NCBI GenBank assembly: GCA_963828465.1 | Contig: CAWHEU010000018.1 | Span: 288,001 to 352,000 of the forward strand | DNA from: an uncultured Acidobacteriota bacterium | GTDB taxonomy: Bacteria > Actinomycetota > Acidimicrobiia > Spongiisociales > ZC4RG35 | DNA: 64,000 nt | Reading direction: 5' to 3' | Made by a program: the position numbers and the translations under genes | Notes under the pieces: generated by a model | The model's database searches: none | What the model saw: the letters and a program-made list of their open reading frames with translations, nothing else | Told to the model about the DNA's origin: nothing | Part shown: in pieces, positions 41,948 through 47,673 of the stretch | Layout: every line of letters starts with the position of its first letter | Position numbering within the stretch: position 1 is the stretch's first letter

Positions 41948-43561
41948 TCAGCCCTCTTCCATGAGGAGGTCGGCGTATTCGTTCCTCACGACCTTCTTGT
42001 CGAACTTGCCAGTGCCTGTCTTGGGAATCTGGTCGATGAACAGGATCTTGTCGGGCAGCCACCACTTGGCGACCCGCTCCTCGAGGAAGGAATGCAAATC
42101 CTCCTCCGACACCTCGACGCCTTCACGGAGAACGACGAAGGCCACCGGGCGCTCCTGCCATTTGACGTGCTTCAGGCCAACGACGGTTGCCTCGCTCACG
42201 TCGGGGTGGGCCATGAGCGCATTCTCCAGATCGATCGATGAGATCCACTCCCCACCCGACTTGATCACGTCCTTGGCGCGGTCGGTGATCTTGATGTAGC
42301 CCTCGGGCGTGATCTTGCAGACGTCGCCGGTGCGGAGCCACCCGTCCTCGAACGACTGGGCGGAGCGGCTGTCCTGGTAGTACTCGGCGGCGATCCAGGG
42401 GCCGCGGATCAACAGCTCACCGAACGCCTCTCCATCGTGGGGCAGCTCCTCACCGATCTCGTCCACGATCTTGACCTGGAGCCCGGCCACCGGGATGCCT
42501 GCCGTCTCGAGGAAGTCGAGTTGCCGGTCGAGGTCCCACTCCTCCATCTCGGGCTTGAGGAGGCTGGTCGAGGCGACCGGGTTGGTCTCGGTCATGCCCC
42601 AGCCCTGCACGACCCGGATTCCCTGGACCTTCCAGTACCACTCGATCATCGCCCTTGGAACTGCCGATCCCCCGCACAGGAAAGCGCGGATCGAAGAGAG
42701 GTCGACATCCGGGTTCGCTTCGAGATACTGCTTGATCCCCAACCAAACCGTGGGCACACCGGCGCTGAATGTCACCTTCTCCTGCTCGAGCAGGGGGACG
42801 AGACCCTGTGGGGTCAAGTCGGGACCGGGATAGGTGAGTTTGGCCCCCTGAGTGACGGCCATGAAGGGGTACCCCCAGGCGGCAGCATGGAACATCGGCA
42901 CAACCGGCAGGACGTTGTCGCTCGGGAGCATGTTGAAGTTGGCCAAGTTGGAGATCGTGTGCAGGTATGTGGATCGCTGCGTGTAGGCGACCCCTTTCGG
43001 GTTGCCCGTCGTTCCCGACGAGTAACAGAACATCATCGGGGACCGCTCGTCGAGCTGGGGCCAGGGTCCGTGAGGCTCGGCGTCCCCGATCAGGTCCTCG
43101 TAGGCGATCGATCCCGGGATCGCATCCGAGGCCGACTCCCCCATGACGACGAAGGTCTCCACCGTCTTCAGCTCCGGTGTGATCGGTCCCAGGAGCGGAG
43201 CTAGATCGGGGTCGACGAACAGCACCTTGTCCCCGGCGTGGTTGATGATGTAGGCGATCTGATCGGCGAAGAGCCTGATGTTGACGGTGTGGCAGACGAG
43301 CCCGGTATTGGCGGTGGCCCAATAGAGCTCGTGATGGCGGCGGTTGTTCCAGGCAAAGGTGCCCACCGGGTCGCCCTGCGAGAGACCCAGGGCCTCGAAG
43401 GCGGTGGCGAGTCGTCTCACCCTGGTGTCGGTCTCGCCGTAGGTGGTGCGGGTCACCGACCGATCGGCCTCGACGGAGACGATCTCCTGGTCCGGGTAGA
43501 GCCAGACCGCCCGGTCGTAGAGGGTGGAGAGGTTCAGCGGGAAGTCCTGCATGTGTGGCAT
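41948..43561 (-). CDS. Medium/long-chain fatty acid--CoA ligase (AlkK/DmdB-like)
   Basis: YSSGTTGNPKG, GWGMTET, WLRTGD, DVIKSGGEWISS, GKFDKK. Confidence 0.93.
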   Translation of the reverse strand: MPHMQDFPLNLSTLYDRAVWLYPDQEIVSVEADRSVTRTTYGETDTRVRRLATAFEALGLSQGDPVGTFAWNNRRHHELYWATANTGLVCHTVNIRLFADQIAYIINHAGDKVLFVDPDLAPLLGPITPELKTVETFVVMGESASDAIPGSIAYEDLIGDAEPHGPWPQLDERSPMMFCYSSGTTGNPKGVAYTQRSTYLHTISNLANFNMLPSDNVLPVVPMFHAAAWGYPFMAVTQGAKLTYPGPDLTPQGLVPLLEQEKVTFSAGVPTVWLGIKQYLEANPDVDLSSIRAFLCGGSAVPRAMIEWYWKVQGIRVVQGWGMTETNPVASTSLLKPEMEEWDLDRQLDFLETAGIPVAGLQVKIVDEIGEELPHDGEAFGELLIRGPWIAAEYYQDSRSAQSFEDGWLRTGDVCKITPEGYIKITDRAKDVIKSGGEWISSIDLENALMAHPDVSEATVVGLKHVKWQERPVAFVVLREGVEVSEEDLHSFLEERVAKWWLPDKILFIDQIPKTGTGKFDKKVVRNEYADLLMEEG

Positions 43562-44172
43562 CAGGCGCCTCCGATCAGCTTCTGCTTCTCTGCCTCGAAC
43601 TCGACATCGCTCAGCTTGCCTTCGTCGTGGAGCCGAGACAGTGTGGCGAGCTGGGAAGCGGAGCTTTCTGCCGCCGCCGCCCGTCCCCCTGATTGCAAGG
43701 AGTGCTGGCGATCCTCCCTCGCCTGATAGATCAGCGACTGGATCGCCTCTGGATCGGGAATATCGGTGTAGTGGGTTTGCCCGTGGGTCCCGGCCGACTC
43801 GATGAGGAGATCACCGGTCCCGAAAATCCGCTCCCATGCCGATTGCTGAAACGCCACGTCGTTGATCACCTCGAGCGGGAGCTCTTTGCCCTGTTTGGAA
43901 AGGAGGCCCACGCGGTGGATCAGGCGCTCAGTCGTAATGACGTGCAGCGTGGTGAACCAGCGGATGAACCCTCTCGCCGTCAGCACGAGCCACAGGATGA
44001 TGAGGGCGCCGATCACCCACAGAGCCCAATCGAATCCCTGGAACGCGAGGAACACGATGACTGCGAGGGCGAGGATGGAGAGAATGGCTTCCTTGAGGAT
44101 CCCGGACCAGTGAGGTCTGAATTCGGCCTTGATCTCCTCGCCCGGGCTGAGCAGTTTCTCTGGATACGCCAT
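43561..44172 (-). CDS. Membrane protein with bacterial PH domain (bPH_2) and C-terminal SHOCT domain
   Basis: 2 TM helices, ITTERLIHRVG, ERIFGTGDLLIESAG, LSRLHDEGKLSDVEFEAEKQKL. Confidence 0.88.
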   Translation of the reverse strand: MAYPEKLLSPGEEIKAEFRPHWSGILKEAILSILALAVIVFLAFQGFDWALWVIGALIILWLVLTARGFIRWFTTLHVITTERLIHRVGLLSKQGKELPLEVINDVAFQQSAWERIFGTGDLLIESAGTHGQTHYTDIPDPEAIQSLIYQAREDRQHSLQSGGRAAAAESSASQLATLSRLHDEGKLSDVEFEAEKQKLIGGA

Positions 44173-44214
44173 GGCGGCAGGCTACCGATCAGGCCGTTTG
44201 GATGAGTCCCCACA

Positions 44215-44572
44215 CAACGAGAAAGTCCCGAGGGAGCCTTGGCCGAAGCCTCAACCCTCTCGGGACTCTCGCCCATCCGGTGTCAGGCCGGGGACCCAAC
44301 TCCGAATGGAGTTCTTGCCGATGGCCGAAGCCGCCGGCAGGTGTGCGATCCGAAGATCGCGACCTCCCCGTCTCCGGGAAGACCTTGCGAGTCGTGAGAC
44401 CCGCCGTTCGGTGACCGCTCGACGATCCCGAAGGATCCCCGTCCGGTCGTCCGACCGTCCCTGGGGCCCTCAGTTTCCCGGTGACTCCAGGTTCCCGCAC
44501 CACGGCCTCGGAGCGGCTCTCACCACTCCGAACCTCTTGATTCGGGCCGCCGCCGGGTTTCCCCTTCGGCGT
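44215..44572 (-). ncRNA. Unassigned highly structured RNA A (about 360 nt)
   Basis: Own promoter; about 10 helices closed by UUCG/GNRA tetraloops on the minus strand; long 3' hairpin shared with RNA B; no credible ORF. Confidence 0.75.
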
Positions 44573-44579
44573 GGGTGGA

Positions 44580-44608
44580 AACGTAGACCGGCACCATGGT
44601 GCTGGCAA
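44580..44608 (-). promoter_or_regulatory. Promoter TTGCCA-N17-TACGTT for RNA A, with an 18-bp dyad (44588-44605) in the spacer
   Basis: Reads TTGCCA gcaccatggtgccggtc TACGTT on the minus strand; first hairpin begins about 8 nt downstream. Confidence 0.7.
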
Positions 44609-44682
44609 CTCCAGGCACTGATTCTTTTTCGCGAGGTGATCAATAGTTTCCGCGGTGTCTGTCGGGGCTGGGGAAGACGCAC

Positions 44683-45771
44683 CTATCGGGGTCGTTTCAG
44701 TCTGACTCTGGAGACACCGAGGCGGATGATCTGAAGACCTTCACGGTGTACGGAGACATGATGGTGAAACCAGCACAGGGTGATCAGATTGTCCGCATCG
44801 GTCTTTCCACCGTGTGACCAGGGGATGACATGGTGGACTTGGAGCCGATAACTGAACGGGCAGCCTTCCACGGTGCATCCGCCGTCACGGTGGAGGACAT
44901 GACGTCTGAGTTTCCGGTCCACAGTCCTGGATCGGCGTCCCAAATCGAGCGGTTTGTGTTCGGCTCGACCGATCAGGTCCACATTCCCGTTACAGAGGAC
45001 CTCTGCGAGGGTGCCCGGTCCCAGTCTCGGACCGGCAAGGACGGAAACGCCCCGTTCGCCGCTGGTTTCCGCCGCTGTCGGGGCGTCGACGATCACTGCC
45101 AAATCGACCGGCGGGGACTCTTCGCCCGAAACGCTCTGATAGGGGGATTCTTCGCCCGAAACGCTCTGATAGAGGGAGTCCTGACAGATGGCGACCAGGG
45201 CCAAAGCCCGCCGTTCCGCCACTGCCAGACGTTGATCTCCCGGGACGATCTCATCGGCCCTCTGGTCGACCGCCTTCTCCATGATCCGGGCATCCAAACC
45301 GGGGAGCTCACCCCAAAACGATGTGGCCAGCTCATCGGAATGGCCGAAATGGACAAAACCATTCCCGGTTCTCCGTTCACGATTCCGGGTCAACCGCTTG
45401 TGATCAGCCACCAGACGACGCAACCCCGAAATGTCGTAACCCTCATGACCGGCACGGGATTCAGAGGGAAGCCGAGACAGCTGTTCCGCCCGATCAAAGG
45501 AGACCTCACCAGCCGCTAGCTGCTCGACCACATCGGGAGCCTCCGCCAGACGAGTTGCCGTCCAACACAGACTCCGGGCCGTCTCATGAGACACATCAGC
45601 ACGAGCCGCCATCCAATCAATGATCGACCGGCAACCATCAGCCAAATGAGACTTCCGGCGACGTTTCTCCGCCACCGCCGCCATCTGCAACAACCGGATC
45701 GTGGCGATCTCCCGCTCACCATCAGCAATCAACTGATCCAGTTGATCCTCGGAGTAACTCCCCAACTCCAT
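44683..45771 (-). CDS. DUF222 / 13E12-repeat-like HNH endonuclease
   Basis: RDGGCTVEGC..QVHHVIPWSHGGKTDADNLITLCWFHH; helical DUF222-like N-region; leaderless ATG at 45771. Confidence 0.88.
   Translation of the reverse strand: MELGSYSEDQLDQLIADGEREIATIRLLQMAAVAEKRRRKSHLADGCRSIIDWMAARADVSHETARSLCWTATRLAEAPDVVEQLAAGEVSFDRAEQLSRLPSESRAGHEGYDISGLRRLVADHKRLTRNRERRTGNGFVHFGHSDELATSFWGELPGLDARIMEKAVDQRADEIVPGDQRLAVAERRALALVAICQDSLYQSVSGEESPYQSVSGEESPPVDLAVIVDAPTAAETSGERGVSVLAGPRLGPGTLAEVLCNGNVDLIGRAEHKPLDLGRRSRTVDRKLRRHVLHRDGGCTVEGCPFSYRLQVHHVIPWSHGGKTDADNLITLCWFHHHVSVHREGLQIIRLGVSRVRLKRPR
45113..45172. repeat. 30-bp tandem duplication inside the HNH gene (YQSVSGEESP x2)
   Basis: GGGGA(C/T)TCTTCGCCCGAAACGCTCTGATAG twice, 1 mismatch, in frame. 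Confidence 0.9.
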
Positions 45772-45778
45772 ACCCGAC

Positions 45779-45801
45779 AACGTACGAGGAGGGCGTGACA
45801 A
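45779..45801 (-). promoter_or_regulatory. RecA-NDp/PafBC-type DNA-damage promoter TTGTCA-N11-TACGTT
   Basis: TTGTCAcgccctcctcgTACGTT, then 7 nt, then ATG of the HNH gene. Confidence 0.7.
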
Positions 45802-45944
45802 ATTTGCCCTTGGAAGAAGAAGATCTGAGTGAATTTCTCTAGAGAATTGCCCCCGCGATCAGTTGCGCCACGTAGCCCAGGTTGAAGTTCTTGGAGACTC
45901 AAGCCGGACCTTGCCCAGACCACTGAAATACCGGCCGAGGGTAA

Positions 45945-46095
45945 GACGCGAGAAACCCCGAGAAAGCTTTGGCCGAAGCCGAAGCCCTCTCGGGGCTCTC
46001 AGTGCCACTCGACCGGGAAAGCGGGCCCCCAGTCAGGTGGCGATCCGGAGGGGCCGAAGCCTCTCCTTCCCCGACCCGGGCGAACCCGTGTCGGT
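45945..46095 (-). ncRNA. Unassigned structured RNA B (about 150 nt, four hairpins)
   Basis: Own promoter; three UUCG-capped stems; 3' hairpin matches RNA A at 44 of 53 aligned positions with a compensatory change. Confidence 0.72.
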
Positions 46096-46102
46096 AAGCG
46101 GC

Positions 46103-46132
46103 AAAGTACGAGAACCCGACCTCACCCGTCAA
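46103..46132 (-). promoter_or_regulatory. Promoter TTGACG-N18-TACTTT for RNA B
   Basis: Near-consensus hexamers; +1 predicted at A 46095, the first base of hairpin 1. Confidence 0.7.
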
Positions 46133-46191
46133 GCCATACCGGAGCCTTGTTTTCGCGGCCTAGCCGATCTTTTCGCGTTTAGCCTTCGCCC

Positions 46192-46827
46192 ATGGCAACG
46201 GCCCGAAAGAGCGTGCCGACAGCATGGGTCGTGGTCTTCTTTCTCATCGCAGTCGTACTCGTCTTCGCCGTGATCCGGGTGACCATCGACAGCCAGAACA
46301 TCGCCAACGGAGTGATCCCGAACGAGGGCGAGTTCGATCGCCGTTATGCCCAGTATCCGATCCTGGCCTACGCCCACATCCTCCCCGGAGTCGTCTACCT
46401 GGTCCTTGCTCCATTCCAGGTCTCCCGCCGATTCCGCAATCGCCACCTCGACCTGCACCGAAAGATGGGCCGCTTCCTGGTGCCGATCGGAATCCTTTCT
46501 GGAGTGCTCGGAGTCATATTCGGCTTCTTCTTCTCCTTCGGCGGGTTCGCAGAGGCCAGTGCCGCTGTGGTGTTCGGCACCTGGTTCGTCATCGCCCTTG
46601 CCCTGGCCTACAGCTACATCCGAGCCGGCGACACCGTCCGCCACCGCCGATGGATGATCCGGGCCTTCGCCATCGGGCTCGGCGTCGGGACGATCAGGAT
46701 CTGGGTCGGGCTGTTCCAGGGATTCGGCCTATTCGACGAAGTCACTTCCTTCGGCGTGGCCTTCTGGTTGTCGTGGACCCTGCACGTGATCGCGGCCGAG
46801 ATCTGGCTGTGGCGACGGCCCACCTGA
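46192..46827 (+). CDS. DUF2306 family membrane protein
   Basis: AHILPG..LAPFQ, LHRKMGR, HRRWMIRAFA. Confidence 0.85.
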   Translation: MATARKSVPTAWVVVFFLIAVVLVFAVIRVTIDSQNIANGVIPNEGEFDRRYAQYPILAYAHILPGVVYLVLAPFQVSRRFRNRHLDLHRKMGRFLVPIGILSGVLGVIFGFFFSFGGFAEASAAVVFGTWFVIALALAYSYIRAGDTVRHRRWMIRAFAIGLGVGTIRIWVGLFQGFGLFDEVTSFGVAFWLSWTLHVIAAEIWLWRRPT

Positions 46828-46843
46828 CCGATCTCCCCATTCC

Positions 46844-46865
46844 TGTCACAGGCCGGTCTTACACT
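46844..46865 (+). promoter_or_regulatory. RecA-NDp/PafBC-type promoter TGTCA-N11-TACACT
   Basis: TGTCAcaggccggtctTACACT, then 7 nt, then GTG 46873. Confidence 0.7.
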
Positions 46866-46872
46866 CGGCATC

Positions 46873-47673
46873 GTGACTGTAGAACTGGAATTGGCCCCCC
46901 TGGAGACCCTCTCCCCGAGCCGTGCCGGGGACTTCAAGGCGTGCCCCCAGCTCTTCAAGTTCCGGGCCATCGACCGTCTCAGCGAGCCCGCATCGGTGTA
47001 TCAGGCCCGGGGTACCACGGCCCATCTCGCACTGCAGCGACTCTTCGACCACCCCTCCATCGATCGTTCGCCCGAGCTCCTGTATGACCTGTTCCGCGAC
47101 GCCTGGACCGAGCTCCGAGGGAGCGAGGAGTTCGAAGACCTCTTCGGCGACACCGACGAGGAGCGGCAATGGGGCGTGGAGTCCCTCGCCCTTCTCACCA
47201 ACTACTTCAGCATCGAGGACCCGACCGGGTTCGACCCGGTGGACCGCGAGCTGGACATGCTCGAAGACCTCGACGGGATCACGATCAGGGGGATCCTCGA
47301 CCGGATTGACCGCGACGACGACGGTCGACTCGTCATCACCGACTACAAGACGGGCAAGGCCCCACCGGAGAGGTACGCCCTCCCCGCCTTCTTCGCCCTG
47401 AAGATCTACGCCCTTCTCATTCGACGCCGCACCGGGGAGACCCCGAAGGAGCTTCGCCTCCTCTATCTGAGCGGGCCGACCCTTTACAGGCTCGACATCG
47501 ACGACCGCCAACTCGATGCCATGGACTCGCAGCTGCGGGCGCTGTGGAACGCGATCGACCGGGCCCTGGCCACTCGAAACTTCCCCACCCGTCCCGGCAC
47601 ATTGTGCAACTGGTGCTCGTTCAAGGAGATCTGCCCGGCGTTCGCCGAGGCCCCGATGGAGAAAGCCTCCTAG
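46873..47673 (+). CDS. RecB-family PD-(D/E)XK exonuclease with 4-Cys Fe-S motif
   Basis: LSPSRAGDFKACP, RGILDRID, DYKTGK, LCNWCSFKEICP. Confidence 0.92.
   Translation: MTVELELAPLETLSPSRAGDFKACPQLFKFRAIDRLSEPASVYQARGTTAHLALQRLFDHPSIDRSPELLYDLFRDAWTELRGSEEFEDLFGDTDEERQWGVESLALLTNYFSIEDPTGFDPVDRELDMLEDLDGITIRGILDRIDRDDDGRLVITDYKTGKAPPERYALPAFFALKIYALLIRRRTGETPKELRLLYLSGPTLYRLDIDDRQLDAMDSQLRALWNAIDRALATRNFPTRPGTLCNWCSFKEICPAFAEAPMEKAS

What the first reader, a model, noticed from the sequence alone, without database searches (positions are those of the whole stretch)
44215..46132. HNH endonuclease gene bracketed by two related structured non-coding RNAs: candidate RNA-associated nuclease system
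Seen, all on the minus strand in order: promoter, RNA B (about 150 nt), damage-type promoter, DUF222-HNH gene, promoter, RNA A (about 360 nt). The RNAs share a 3' hairpin (44218-44270 versus 45949-46000; 44/53 identical, with a compensatory A-U to G-C pair and the same GGC-UUCG-GCC cap) but differ upstream. Known: HNH nucleases with adjacent structured RNAs include IscB/omegaRNA (HEARO), but this protein lacks RuvC motifs and resembles the 13E12/DUF222 family, for which I know no RNA partner. Inference: either a ribonucleoprotein system in which the shared hairpin is a protein-binding handle on variable RNAs, or a tandem sRNA family into which a mobile HNH gene inserted.
Basis: partly seen in the sequence, partly recalled or inferred. 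Interest (0 to 1): 0.85.

Follow-up and report, generated by a model that had tools for sequence, protein, structure and literature searches.

The report
Mobile HNH gene between two small-RNA genes
Two neighbouring genes for folded small RNAs of unknown function, conserved across one order of soil Acidimicrobiia, have been split in this genome by a selfish, DNA-damage-type HNH nuclease gene that is not their partner.

Summary
On the minus strand lie RNA B (about 150 nt), a DUF222-HNH gene and RNA A (about 357 nt), and the RNAs share a 3' hairpin. The ribonucleoprotein reading does not hold. Both RNA genes matched in 24 of 24 same-genus genomes (one unpublished). In 6 of 21 genomes where both lie on one contig, only 52-162 nt separate them. 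Other species carry a methyltransferase, DsrE/DsrC-like genes or an unrelated DUF222 gene there. A hairpin model found the hairpin near 5 of 80 DUF222-HNH loci, four of them this same locus. None of 25 RNA arrays outside the genus has an HNH gene. The HNH unit (45801-44660) has a TGTCA-N11-TAnnnT promoter and a leaderless start, shared by 71 of 76 relatives. The RNAs are a tandem pair with a common upstream CGCGAAAA box and an invariant 3' hairpin. They have covariation support and no Rfam match, and contigs in 4 of 4 metatranscriptomes laid cover them. This scan had already noted the pair in five other genomes.

The parts
46150..46177 (-). Two CGCGAAAA boxes upstream of the RNA B promoter (46177-46170 and 46157-46150)
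   Evidence: Invariant columns in 20 same-genus sequences. The same box lies upstream of RNA A and of the third RNA on C22. Function not tested.
46103..46132 (-). RNA B promoter: -35 TTGACG (46132-46127), 18-nt spacer, -10 TACTTT (46108-46103)
   Evidence: GCTTGAC and TAC.TT are invariant in alignment A2. The generic scan did not call it. The TAnnnT rule is recalled.
45946..46095 (-). RNA B gene, about 150 nt: three hairpins plus the shared 3' hairpin
   Evidence: Conservation ends at 45946 in all 20 sequences. 59 pairs are 97.2% paired, with 5 pairs changed on both sides against 1.9 in shuffles and 0-2 when slid. Metatranscriptome contigs cover 45925-46137 in 4 of 4 runs laid. No Rfam match.
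45949..46000 (-). Shared 3' hairpin, copy B
   Evidence: Model R1 scores it 79.6 bits.
45839..45931 (-). Remnant 3' end of a small gene (it ends ...NFNLGYVAQLIAGAIL, stop at 45841-45839). The gene is intact (126 aa) in relative G012.
   Evidence: Homology of 45931 onward to L048, L071 and L078. Intact ORF at L048:1101-1481 on the minus strand. The family of that ORF was not tested.
45779..45801 (-). Promoter of the HNH gene: TTGTCA, 11 nt, TACGTT (RecA-NDp/PafBC-like)
   Evidence: The same motif, followed 5-9 nt later by a start codon, occurs at 71 of 76 DUF222-HNH loci and at 0 of 76 control stretches inside the genes. DNA homology between copies starts here.
44683..45771 (-). DUF222-HNH gene: 362 aa, leaderless ATG at 45771, stop at 44685-44683
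   Evidence: Pfam DUF222 and HNH. Six other places match it in the same genome, in 11 further match rows, several of them split into pieces or with stops. 222 relatives were confirmed in the genome collection. The model's HNH part resembles McrA-type and Cas-associated HNH domains at Foldseek E 0.005 and weaker, and no match reaches E 0.001.
44660..44682 (-). 3' tail of the mobile unit
   Evidence: Homology to paralogues and to copies at other loci ends at 44660-44669.
44625..44654 (-). Boxes upstream of RNA A: degenerate distal box (44654-44644) and proximal TCGCGAAAAA (44634-44625)
   Evidence: TCGCGAAAA is invariant in 30 sequences from ten genera. Empty-site relatives carry a second intact box at the distal place.
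44580..44608 (-). RNA A promoter: -35 TTGCCA (44608-44603), 17-nt spacer, -10 TACGTT (44585-44580)
   Evidence: TTG and TCTAC.TT are invariant. The generic scan did not call it.
44216..44572 (-). RNA A gene, about 357 nt: a string of about 12 hairpins, many capped by UUCG or GNRA loops, ending in the shared hairpin
   Evidence: Fold z-score -5.3. Genus alignment: 121 pairs, 96.7% paired, 19 pairs changed on both sides against 10.1 in shuffles and 4-7 when slid. Family alignment: 49 of 114 pairs against 26.1 and 20-23. Metatranscriptome contigs cover 44221-44575 in 4 of 4 runs, and sequencing-adapter letters follow 44563 in three runs. No Rfam match.
44218..44270 (-). Shared 3' hairpin, copy A
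   Evidence: Model R1 scores it 78.5 bits.
43561..44172 (-). bPH_2/SHOCT membrane protein gene, the conserved downstream neighbour of the RNA pair
   Evidence: Pfam. Found downstream of the array in 28 of 34 loci.
46844..47673 (+). PD-(D/E)XK nuclease gene with its own TGTCA-N11-TAnnnT promoter (46844-46865) and a GTG start at 46873; the conserved divergent neighbour of the RNA pair
   Evidence: Pfam PDDEXK_1 at E 3e-36. Motif. Present beside the array in 34 of 34 loci.

Best explanation
The locus holds two independent things.

**(1) An old tandem pair of small-RNA genes.** RNA B and RNA A each have their own promoter, preceded by CGCGAAAA boxes, and each ends in the same nearly invariant hairpin. 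The pair sits between a divergent PD-(D/E)XK nuclease gene and a bPH_2/acyl-CoA-synthetase operon throughout one order of Acidimicrobiia. RNA A is a discrete, multi-hairpin RNA that is present in metatranscriptomes. I infer that the shared boxes give common transcriptional control. I also infer that the hairpin serves as the 3' end or stability element, and possibly as a binding site for a protein still unknown. Their cellular role is not shown. My best guess is an abundant regulatory or protein-titrating RNA in the manner of 6S, Ms1 or CsrB.

**(2) A compact selfish DUF222-HNH gene (45801-44660).** It consists of a DNA-damage-type (PafBC/RecA-NDp-like) promoter, a leaderless ORF and a short tail. 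It inserted into the 50-80-nt spacer between the terminator of RNA B and the boxes of RNA A in one sub-lineage of the genus. Both RNA genes were left intact. The nuclease is expressed from its own promoter, probably after DNA damage, and does not need the RNAs.

**Shown:** presence and absence of the HNH gene at this site, the multi-copy family, the promoter motif, and RNA conservation with covariation.

**Inferred:** damage induction, the mechanism of mobility, and the role of the RNAs.
For: **Presence and absence at the site**
- RNA A and RNA B each matched in 24 of 24 same-genus genomes; this tally includes the unpublished G018.
- Of 21 genus genomes with both RNAs on one contig (G018 left out), the spacer states are as follows.

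| State of the B-A spacer | Genomes |
|---|---|
| 52-162 nt, no gene | G003, G005, G007, G010, G013, G086 |
| This HNH type | G000, G006, G012 (broken), G015, G019 |
| 378-nt remnant of it | G020 |
| Different DUF222 gene (32% identity over 96 aa) | G023 |
| Gene on the opposite strand; methyltransferase by Pfam in G011 | G009, G011, G022 |
| About 2.3 kb; DsrE/DsrC-like by Pfam in G008 | G004, G008, G024 |
| The two RNAs on opposite strands | G001, G002 |

**No general RNA-HNH link**
- Model R1 finds the hairpin in the own genome only at A, B and C22:129468. No other DUF222 copy has it.
- It finds the hairpin in 5 of 80 DUF222-HNH loci. Four are this orthologous locus. In the fifth, L126, the HNH gene lies beyond the bPH_2 gene.
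- 0 of 25 arrays from other genera hold an HNH match.

**The mobile unit**
- Homology between copies runs only from 45801/45785 to 44660.
- The promoter motif with a leaderless start is at 71 of 76 loci and at 0 of 76 controls.
- In the own genome the motif also precedes other DUF222 copies and a uvrC-like ORF.
- An adjacent pair of WYL proteins is present.
- Passages of PMC3381160 state that M. tuberculosis 13E12 genes carry RecA_NDp and are damage-induced.

**The RNAs**
- The hairpin is found in 35 of 36 sampled genomes of the families that carry it, G000 not counted. It is found in 1 of the 114 other genomes of the class.
- Synteny with the PD-(D/E)XK gene holds in 34 of 34 loci.
- Covariation supports the folds.
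- There is no Rfam hit.
- RNase P RNA, tmRNA and SRP RNA lie elsewhere in the genome.
- Metatranscriptome contigs cover both RNAs.
Against: - Two unrelated DUF222-HNH lineages (the G000 type and the G023 type) occupy the same short spacer, and L126 has a third within 900 nt of an array. This is more than I would expect from random insertion and could mean some site preference.
- The spacer sequences differ too much between species to define exact insertion junctions or target-site repeats.
- The RecA-NDp consensus I compared with is recalled. The papers I read name the motif but do not print it.
- The loose motif is not enriched genome-wide: 31 matches against 33 on reversed sequence. Only the subset followed closely by a start codon is telling.
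- The generic scan calls no promoter and no terminator here.
- Contig depth is summed over relatives, in runs chosen because they hold this stretch. It is not a measure of expression.
- No experiment bears on the function of either RNA or of the nuclease.
Confidence: 0.85

Rival explanations
1. Site-preferring homing. DUF222-HNH nucleases recognise the conserved palindromic hairpin DNA or the adjacent box and promoter sequence, and so repeatedly colonise the spacer of this RNA array. The RNAs would be a target, not a partner.
For: - Two distantly related DUF222 genes sit in the same 50-160-nt spacer in different species of one genus: the G000 type and the G023 type, 32% identical over the HNH part.
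- L126, from another lineage, has a 40%-identical HNH gene about 900 nt beyond an array.
Against: - 75 of 80 HNH loci have no hairpin within 2.5 kb.
- 0 of 25 arrays outside the genus hold an HNH gene.
- The same spacer also holds a methyltransferase, DsrE/DsrC-like genes, a GNAT gene and a ceramidase-like gene in other species. It looks like a general variable spot.
- L126 was found from the HNH side, and its HNH gene is not in the spacer.
Confidence: 0.08
2. Ribonucleoprotein system. The HNH protein binds the shared hairpin of RNA A and/or RNA B and uses the variable RNA body as a guide or regulator, as IscB uses its omega RNA.
For: - A structured RNA lies just upstream of the HNH ORF, and a related one lies downstream.
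- The HNH domain is of the IscB/Cas9 kind: NCBIfam guided_IscB at E 3e-7 over the HNH part, and PDB 9k2z HfmIscB at E 1.6e-4.
- The hairpin core is invariant, as expected of a binding site.
Against: - The RNAs are conserved order-wide without the gene.
- Other copies of the gene lack the RNAs.
- There is no RuvC or other IscB part: Pfam finds only DUF222 and HNH, and the guided_IscB score is 29.9 bits against a cut-off of 175.
- There is no HEARO or other Rfam match.
- The gene has its own promoter and decays at this site: a remnant in G020 and a broken copy in G012.
Confidence: 0.03
3. RNA A is not a free-standing RNA but a long regulatory leader (riboswitch or attenuator) of the bPH_2/acyl-CoA-synthetase operon, with the hairpin as its terminator.
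For: - RNA A ends about 45 nt before the bPH_2 start codon.
- The order RNA pair, then bPH_2, holds in 28 of 34 loci.
Against: - The same hairpin ends RNA B, which is followed by RNA A or by unrelated genes. It also ends the third RNA on C22, which faces a convergent gene.
- In several genera other genes or more than 1 kb separate RNA A from bPH_2 (L161, L162, L165, L166, L187).
- No Rfam riboswitch matches.
Confidence: 0.04

Closest known systems
13E12 (REP13E12) repeat family of Mycobacterium tuberculosis: multi-copy DUF222-HNH genes such as Rv1128c, Rv1148c and Rv1945
   Same: The domain pair DUF222 plus HNH. Many copies per genome, some broken. A DNA-damage-type promoter: passages of PMC3381160 say these genes are damage-induced and contain RecA_NDp or LexA sites.
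   Different: Here the conserved unit is a single promoter-plus-leaderless-ORF cassette of about 1.14 kb. No phage attachment site is known or was tested. The host is an Acidimicrobiia MAG. Sequence similarity to the mycobacterial genes was not measured here.
IscB with its omega RNA (HEARO RNA, IS200/IS605 family)
   Same: An HNH nuclease gene with a structured RNA just upstream. The HNH domain is of the same Pfam family and gives weak hits to IscB.
   Different: No RuvC or other IscB domains. No HEARO match. The RNA and the gene do not co-occur. The RNA has its own promoter and terminator and predates the gene.
Sibling (tandem, paralogous) bacterial small RNAs under one regulator, for example OmrA/OmrB, PrrF1/PrrF2 and the Qrr RNAs (recalled; not looked up here)
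   Same: Adjacent, separately promoted RNA genes that share an upstream DNA motif and a 3' stem-loop.
   Different: The bodies of A and B are unrelated and long (150 and 357 nt), and strongly structured rather than carrying a shared seed. The shared part is the 3' hairpin, with an invariant core across an order.
Ms1 RNA (MTS2823) and 6S RNA, the abundant RNA-polymerase-binding RNAs
   Same: A roughly 300-nt or longer, highly structured RNA of Actinomycetota present in transcriptomes. No Rfam 6S match was found anywhere in this genome, so that role is unfilled by search.
   Different: No Rfam 6S match to RNA A or B. The predicted fold is a string of local hairpins, not a rod with a central bubble. 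Ms1 synteny is HAD hydrolase and oxidoreductase (passages of PMC9130861), whereas here the neighbours are PD-(D/E)XK, bPH_2 and an AMP-binding enzyme. That paper does not mention Acidimicrobiia (0 occurrences).
McrA-type HNH endonucleases (PDB 6ghc EcoKMcrA; 4h9d Gme HNH nicking endonuclease)
   Same: Best fold matches of the model, over the C-terminal HNH part (Foldseek E 0.005 and prob 0.98 for 6ghc).
   Different: No match at E <= 0.001. The confident N-terminal helical DUF222 part (residues 1-125, pLDDT about 90) has no fold match. The model as a whole is weak (mean pLDDT 68, pTM 0.40).

Membership tests
IscB / omega-RNA (HEARO) RNA-guided nuclease | Split RuvC nuclease domain flanking the HNH domain | tested here: not met
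   Pfam finds only DUF222 and HNH at E <= 0.001. NCBIfam guided_IscB scores 29.9 bits against a cut-off of 175, matching profile positions 176-238 only.
IscB / omega-RNA (HEARO) RNA-guided nuclease | Adjacent RNA matches the HEARO/omega RNA family | tested here: not met
   No Rfam match at gathering score in the window. None at E <= 10 in 43900-46400 except one chance-level hit inside the ORF.
IscB / omega-RNA (HEARO) RNA-guided nuclease | Gene and RNA travel together | tested here: not met
   Hairpin found in 5 of 80 HNH loci. HNH found in 0 of 25 arrays outside the genus. Six of 21 genus genomes have an empty spacer.
DUF222-HNH (13E12-like) selfish nuclease genes | DUF222 domain followed by an HNH domain with an intact His/Asn/His and Cys set | tested here: met
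   Pfam PF02720 at E 1.4e-7 and PF01844 at E 1e-9. The C299, C304, H313, H314, C333 and H336-H338 columns are invariant in 24 relatives.
DUF222-HNH (13E12-like) selfish nuclease genes | Multi-copy, with presence/absence polymorphism and decayed copies | tested here: met
   12 match rows at seven places in the own genome, some split into pieces or with stops. Empty, filled and remnant states occur at this site.
DUF222-HNH (13E12-like) selfish nuclease genes | DNA-damage-type (RecA-NDp/PafBC or LexA) promoter | tested here: inconclusive
   TGTC[ACG]-N11-TAnnnT followed by a start codon occurs at 71 of 76 loci and at 0 of 76 controls. It also precedes a uvrC-like ORF. A WYL pair is present. The consensus I compare with is recalled, and induction was not tested.
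Intrinsic (Rho-independent) terminator | G+C-rich stem-loop followed by a U tract | tested here: inconclusive
   The stem is well supported. Conservation and contig cover end just after it.
6S RNA | Match to Rfam RF00013; rod-like fold with a central bubble | tested here: not met
   No match in the window or in the whole genome. That model rings in only 5 of 14 control genomes. The consensus fold is a string of local hairpins. Binding to RNA polymerase cannot be tested here.
Ms1 RNA | Conserved flanking genes (HAD-IB hydrolase and oxidoreductase) | tested here: not met
   The neighbours are PD-(D/E)XK, DUF2306, bPH_2 and an AMP-binding enzyme, against passages of PMC9130861. Sequence comparison with Ms1 was not done because no Ms1 sequence was at hand.
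Tandem sibling small RNAs | Adjacent, separately promoted RNA genes that share regulatory and 3' elements | tested here: met
   Shared boxes, -35/-10 elements and hairpin. Tandem copies 280-1400 nt apart in most of the 36 order genomes with hits. Contig cover falls on both RNAs separately.

The most novel reading that the evidence does not exclude
The invariant CCCGAGAGGG...CUCGGG hairpin is a protein-binding handle common to a family of abundant Acidimicrobiia RNAs. DUF222-HNH proteins of this genus have learned to recognise it, as RNA or as the palindromic DNA, which would explain why two unrelated DUF222 lineages sit in the same spacer. That would make this a lineage-specific link between an RNA or hairpin and a nuclease, and the first known partner or target for a DUF222-HNH gene.
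Probability: 0.05. Interest if true: 0.8.

Novelty: new member of a known kind. Interest (0 to 1): 0.42.

Why it matters
**What it rules out.** The locus is not a new RNA-guided nuclease. It shows how a structured RNA next to an HNH gene can arise by insertion.

**What remains useful.**
- The DUF222-HNH genes of Acidimicrobiia are very compact cassettes: a damage-type promoter, a leaderless ORF and a short tail. Filled, empty and decayed sites occur within one genus. That gives a clean natural system for asking how this large, uncharacterised family (13E12 in M. tuberculosis) moves.
- The RNA pair belongs to an undescribed, order-wide family. It has strong covariation, an invariant 3' hairpin and cover in soil and rhizosphere metatranscriptomes. 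It is a candidate major non-coding RNA of a common, uncultured soil group. Its function and protein partner are open questions that can be tested.

Tried and rejected
- **Rfam.** Nothing at gathering score in the window. At E <= 10 only one chance-level hit, Streptomyces-metK at 14.9 bits inside the ORF. Nothing in 12 related loci.
- **Known housekeeping RNAs.** RNase P RNA, tmRNA and SRP RNA are elsewhere in the genome. 6S was not found, but that model rings in only 5 of 14 control genomes, so this says little.
- **Generic promoter and terminator scan.** 0 promoters and 0 terminators in 44100-46250.
- **Is CGCGAAAA a general promoter element?** It occurs 49 times in the genome, about what I estimate from base composition. 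Only 5 occurrences are followed by -35/-10-like hexamers, and 3 of those are at this locus.
- **Weak R1 hits.** L099, L128 and L103 (14-21 bits, E 0.01-0.9) and G000:C22:475272 and C18:99766 (24 and 18 bits) were treated as noise and not followed.
- **Metatranscriptome cover of the HNH ORF.** Depth was 0 to 6.3 in the four runs. I draw no conclusion on HNH expression.
- **Fold search of the protein model.** No match at E <= 0.001. The helical DUF222 part stays unexplained.
- **Exact insertion junctions.** The spacers of filled and empty species are too unlike to align.
- **Literature.** One search (Acidimicrobiia, noncoding RNA, metatranscriptom, highly abundant, structured RNA) listed nothing on these RNAs among the 15 listings I saw of 334 papers. 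One search (13E12, HNH, DUF222, PafBC, RecA-NDp) listed nothing that links DUF222 genes to an RNA among its 13 papers. Supplements were not available.
- **Not done.** The wide protein searches (search for homologous proteins, the search of protein representatives), complex prediction and the atlas were not used, because the distribution tests already answered the question.
Full report
**What is there.** All coordinates below are on the minus strand of 44215-46132 unless stated.
- Two CGCGAAAA boxes lie at 46177-46170 and 46157-46150.
- A promoter follows: TTGACG, 18 nt, TACTTT (46132-46103).
- RNA B is about 150 nt and ends in a long hairpin at 46000-45949.
- A 93-nt remnant of a small gene follows at 45931-45839.
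- The motif TTGTCA-N11-TACGTT (45801-45779) comes next, with an ATG at 45771 seven nt after the -10.
- That ATG opens a 362-aa ORF ending at 44683.
- Downstream are a degenerate and an intact CGCGAAAA box (44654-44625) and a second promoter: TTGCCA, 17 nt, TACGTT (44608-44580).
- RNA A is about 357 nt and ends in the second hairpin at 44270-44218.
- The ORF is DUF222 plus HNH and nothing else by Pfam.
- Neighbours: a bPH_2/SHOCT gene and an AMP-binding enzyme gene downstream on the same strand. A DUF2306 membrane-protein gene and a PD-(D/E)XK nuclease gene lie on the plus strand upstream.
- Record titles of close relatives name Acidimicrobiia MAGs.

**Check of the observation.** The hairpins are 84% identical over 44 ungapped nt. 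BLAST gives 83% over 52-53 nt at E 2e-7 in the 3.07-Mb genome. A covariance model built from 35 hairpins finds three strong copies in the genome, at 73-80 bits. They are A, B and a third on contig C22, which also has a CGCGAAAA box and promoter-like hexamers upstream. RNA A folds far better than shuffles (z = -5.3). RNA B does so less clearly (z = -2.5). The generic sigma-70 and terminator scan calls nothing here. The promoters are therefore inferred from invariant alignment columns and the recalled actinobacterial TAnnnT rule. The U tract after the hairpin is short.

**The RNAs exist without the gene.** DNA searches of 40 relatives found RNA A and RNA B in 24 of 24 same-genus genomes. This tally includes the unpublished genome G018, and nothing else in the report rests on it. 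The distance between the two RNAs varies. In the 21 genus genomes with both RNAs on one contig (G018 left out), the spacer between the end of RNA B and the box of RNA A takes these forms:
- **Six genomes** (G003, G005, G007, G010, G013, G086): 52-162 nt with no gene.
- **Five genomes** (G000, G006, G012, G015, G019): this HNH type. The G012 copy is broken into several frames.
- **G020:** a 378-nt remnant with an internal deletion.
- **G023:** a different DUF222 gene. Pfam gives E 1.8e-32, and it is only 32% identical to ours over 96 residues.
- **Three genomes** (G009, G011, G022): a gene on the opposite strand, a methyltransferase by Pfam in G011.
- **Three genomes** (G004, G008, G024): about 2.3 kb, with DsrE- and DsrC-like genes in G008.
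- **Two genomes** (G001, G002): the two RNAs lie on opposite strands.

**The gene exists without the RNAs.**
- The own genome gives 12 match rows for the protein, at seven places. Several are split into pieces or carry stops. None of the six other places has the hairpin.
- Of 80 DUF222-HNH loci from other genomes, each with up to 2.5 kb on either side, the hairpin model hits five. Four are this same orthologous locus.
- In the fifth, L126, two RNA genes are followed by the bPH_2 gene and only then by a 40%-identical HNH gene.
- In 25 arrays fetched from other genera, tblastn with the HNH protein finds nothing.

**The HNH unit.**
- DNA homology between copies at different loci begins at 45801 or 45785 and ends at 44660-44669. 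That span covers the promoter, the ORF and about 23 nt of tail.
- The motif TGTC[ACG]-N11-TAnnnT, followed 5-9 nt later by a start codon, lies at 71 of 76 DUF222-HNH loci that had enough upstream sequence. It lies in 0 of 76 control stretches inside the genes.
- In the own genome the loose motif is not enriched: 31 matches against 33 on reversed sequence. The matches followed at once by an ORF do form a telling set. They include ours, at least five other DUF222 copies, the neighbouring PD-(D/E)XK gene, and ORFs whose first residues look like UvrC and a LAGLIDADG endonuclease. Those last two names are by eye and were not tested.
- Two adjacent WYL-domain genes, as expected of PafB and PafC, are present.
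- Passages of PMC3381160 say that M. tuberculosis 13E12 genes are damage-induced and carry RecA_NDp or LexA sites. Passages of PMC6789036 and PMC8223512 say that PafBC acts through RecA-NDp. None of these passages prints the consensus, which I recall as tTGTCRgtg-N8-TAnnnT.
- The protein's HNH part gives weak hits to IscB: NCBIfam at 29.9 bits against a cut-off of 175, and PDB 9k2z at E 1.6e-4.
- In an AlphaFold model (mean pLDDT 68, pTM 0.40) the HNH part resembles McrA-type HNH domains. The confident helical N-terminal part has no fold match.
- There is no RuvC.

**The RNA pair.**
- The hairpin model finds the family in 35 of 36 sampled genomes of seven families of one order, G000 not counted. 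It finds it in 1 of the other 114 genomes of the class. Most genomes have two copies in tandem, 280-1400 nt apart.
- RNA A and RNA B bodies are recognisable across the family. In other families of the order only the promoter module and the hairpin are.
- The array always lies beside the divergent PD-(D/E)XK gene (34 of 34 loci). It usually lies upstream of bPH_2 (28 of 34).
- Covariation for RNA A in the genus: 121 pairs, 96.7% paired, 19 pairs with changes on both sides against 10.1 in shuffles and 4-7 in slid controls.
- Covariation for RNA A across ten genera: 49 of 114 pairs against 26.1 and 20-23.
- Covariation for RNA B: 5 of 59 pairs against 1.9 and 0-2.
- Two stretches of RNA A and the hairpin core never vary.
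- Neither RNA matches Rfam. RNase P RNA, tmRNA and SRP RNA are elsewhere in the genome, and 6S was not found.

**Transcript evidence.**
- Six metatranscriptome runs hold a small share of the stretch. I laid four, from four studies, labelled soil, rhizosphere or metagenome.
- In all four, contigs at least 90% alike cover 44221-44575 and 45925-46137.
- Summed word depths for RNA A reach 2.5e3 to 7e5. For RNA B they reach 5 to 980.
- Sequencing-adapter letters follow 44563 in three runs. That is a weak hint of a 5' end 9 nt inside my predicted start.
- The depths sum relatives, and the runs were picked because they hold this stretch. They show that such RNAs are present as RNA-library contigs, not how much is made.

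**Reading.** The simplest account is an old tandem small-RNA locus with a variable spacer. In one sub-lineage a compact, damage-promoter-driven DUF222-HNH cassette inserted into that spacer and is now decaying in some species (confidence 0.85). The one result that fits less well is that two unrelated DUF222 lineages use the same spacer. I therefore keep site-preferring homing at 0.08. The RNP reading stays at 0.03 and the leader reading of RNA A at 0.04.

**Earlier notes of this scan.** After I had reached this reading, a look-up by sequence showed five earlier reports on other genomes. They describe the same tandem pair, about 150 nt plus about 394-416 nt, with a shared upstream motif and 3' hairpin, no Rfam match and no HNH gene. 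They agree with what I found and add five more arrays without the gene. The RNA family is therefore not new to the scan. The new points here are the HNH insertion, its cassette structure and the metatranscriptome cover.

Noticed in passing
window 45113-45172: A 30-nt direct tandem repeat (97% identical) inside the HNH ORF gives an in-frame 10-residue duplication. One low-depth metatranscriptome contig skips 31 nt at 45140-45172.
   Followed up: no
window 45839-45931; L048:1101-1481 (minus strand): G000 keeps only the last about 30 codons of a small gene that is intact (126 aa) between RNA B and the HNH gene in relative G012. The family of that ORF was not tested.
   Followed up: partly
window 46844-47673 (+): The PD-(D/E)XK nuclease gene carries the same TGTCA-N11-TAnnnT motif with a GTG start 7 nt after it. 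It is the divergent neighbour of the RNA array in 34 of 34 loci. An abundant RNA pair thus sits next to a damage-type nuclease gene throughout the order. The reason is unknown.
   Followed up: partly
G000:C22:129300-129527 (+): A third small-RNA gene has a CGCGAAAA box, promoter-like hexamers and the same 3' hairpin (73 bits), followed by a T run and a convergent gene. Hairpin matches at a third place were also seen in most same-genus genomes.
   Followed up: partly
G000:C22:431191 (+) and G000:C22:475272-475324 (+): Another CGCGAAAA box with -35/-10-like hexamers is followed at once by a hairpin. A weak hairpin-model hit of 24 bits lies on the same contig. These may be further family members.
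   Followed up: no
G000:C11:20628, C18:23793, C4:65049, C26:43052, C4:127216, C13:37997, C21:82633, C5:36358, C18:221832: A set of leaderless ORFs sits directly behind TGTC[AG]-N11-TAnnnT. Most are DUF222-type genes. One starts like UvrC and one like a LAGLIDADG endonuclease (names by eye, not tested). This looks like a PafBC-type regulon dominated by selfish nucleases. A WYL gene pair lies at C11:40762-41888.
   Followed up: partly
L165 (G003) spacer between RNA B and RNA A, 162 nt: The otherwise empty spacer holds two copies of a palindromic element of about 40 nt.
   Followed up: no
alignment A1 columns 108-206 (G015, G019): RNA A of two species lacks about 90 nt, that is three to four hairpins, while the rest is conserved. 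This shows that the middle hairpins are dispensable.
   Followed up: no
G001:C7 and G002:C146: RNA B and RNA A lie on opposite strands about 2 kb apart, so an inversion occurred between them.
   Followed up: no
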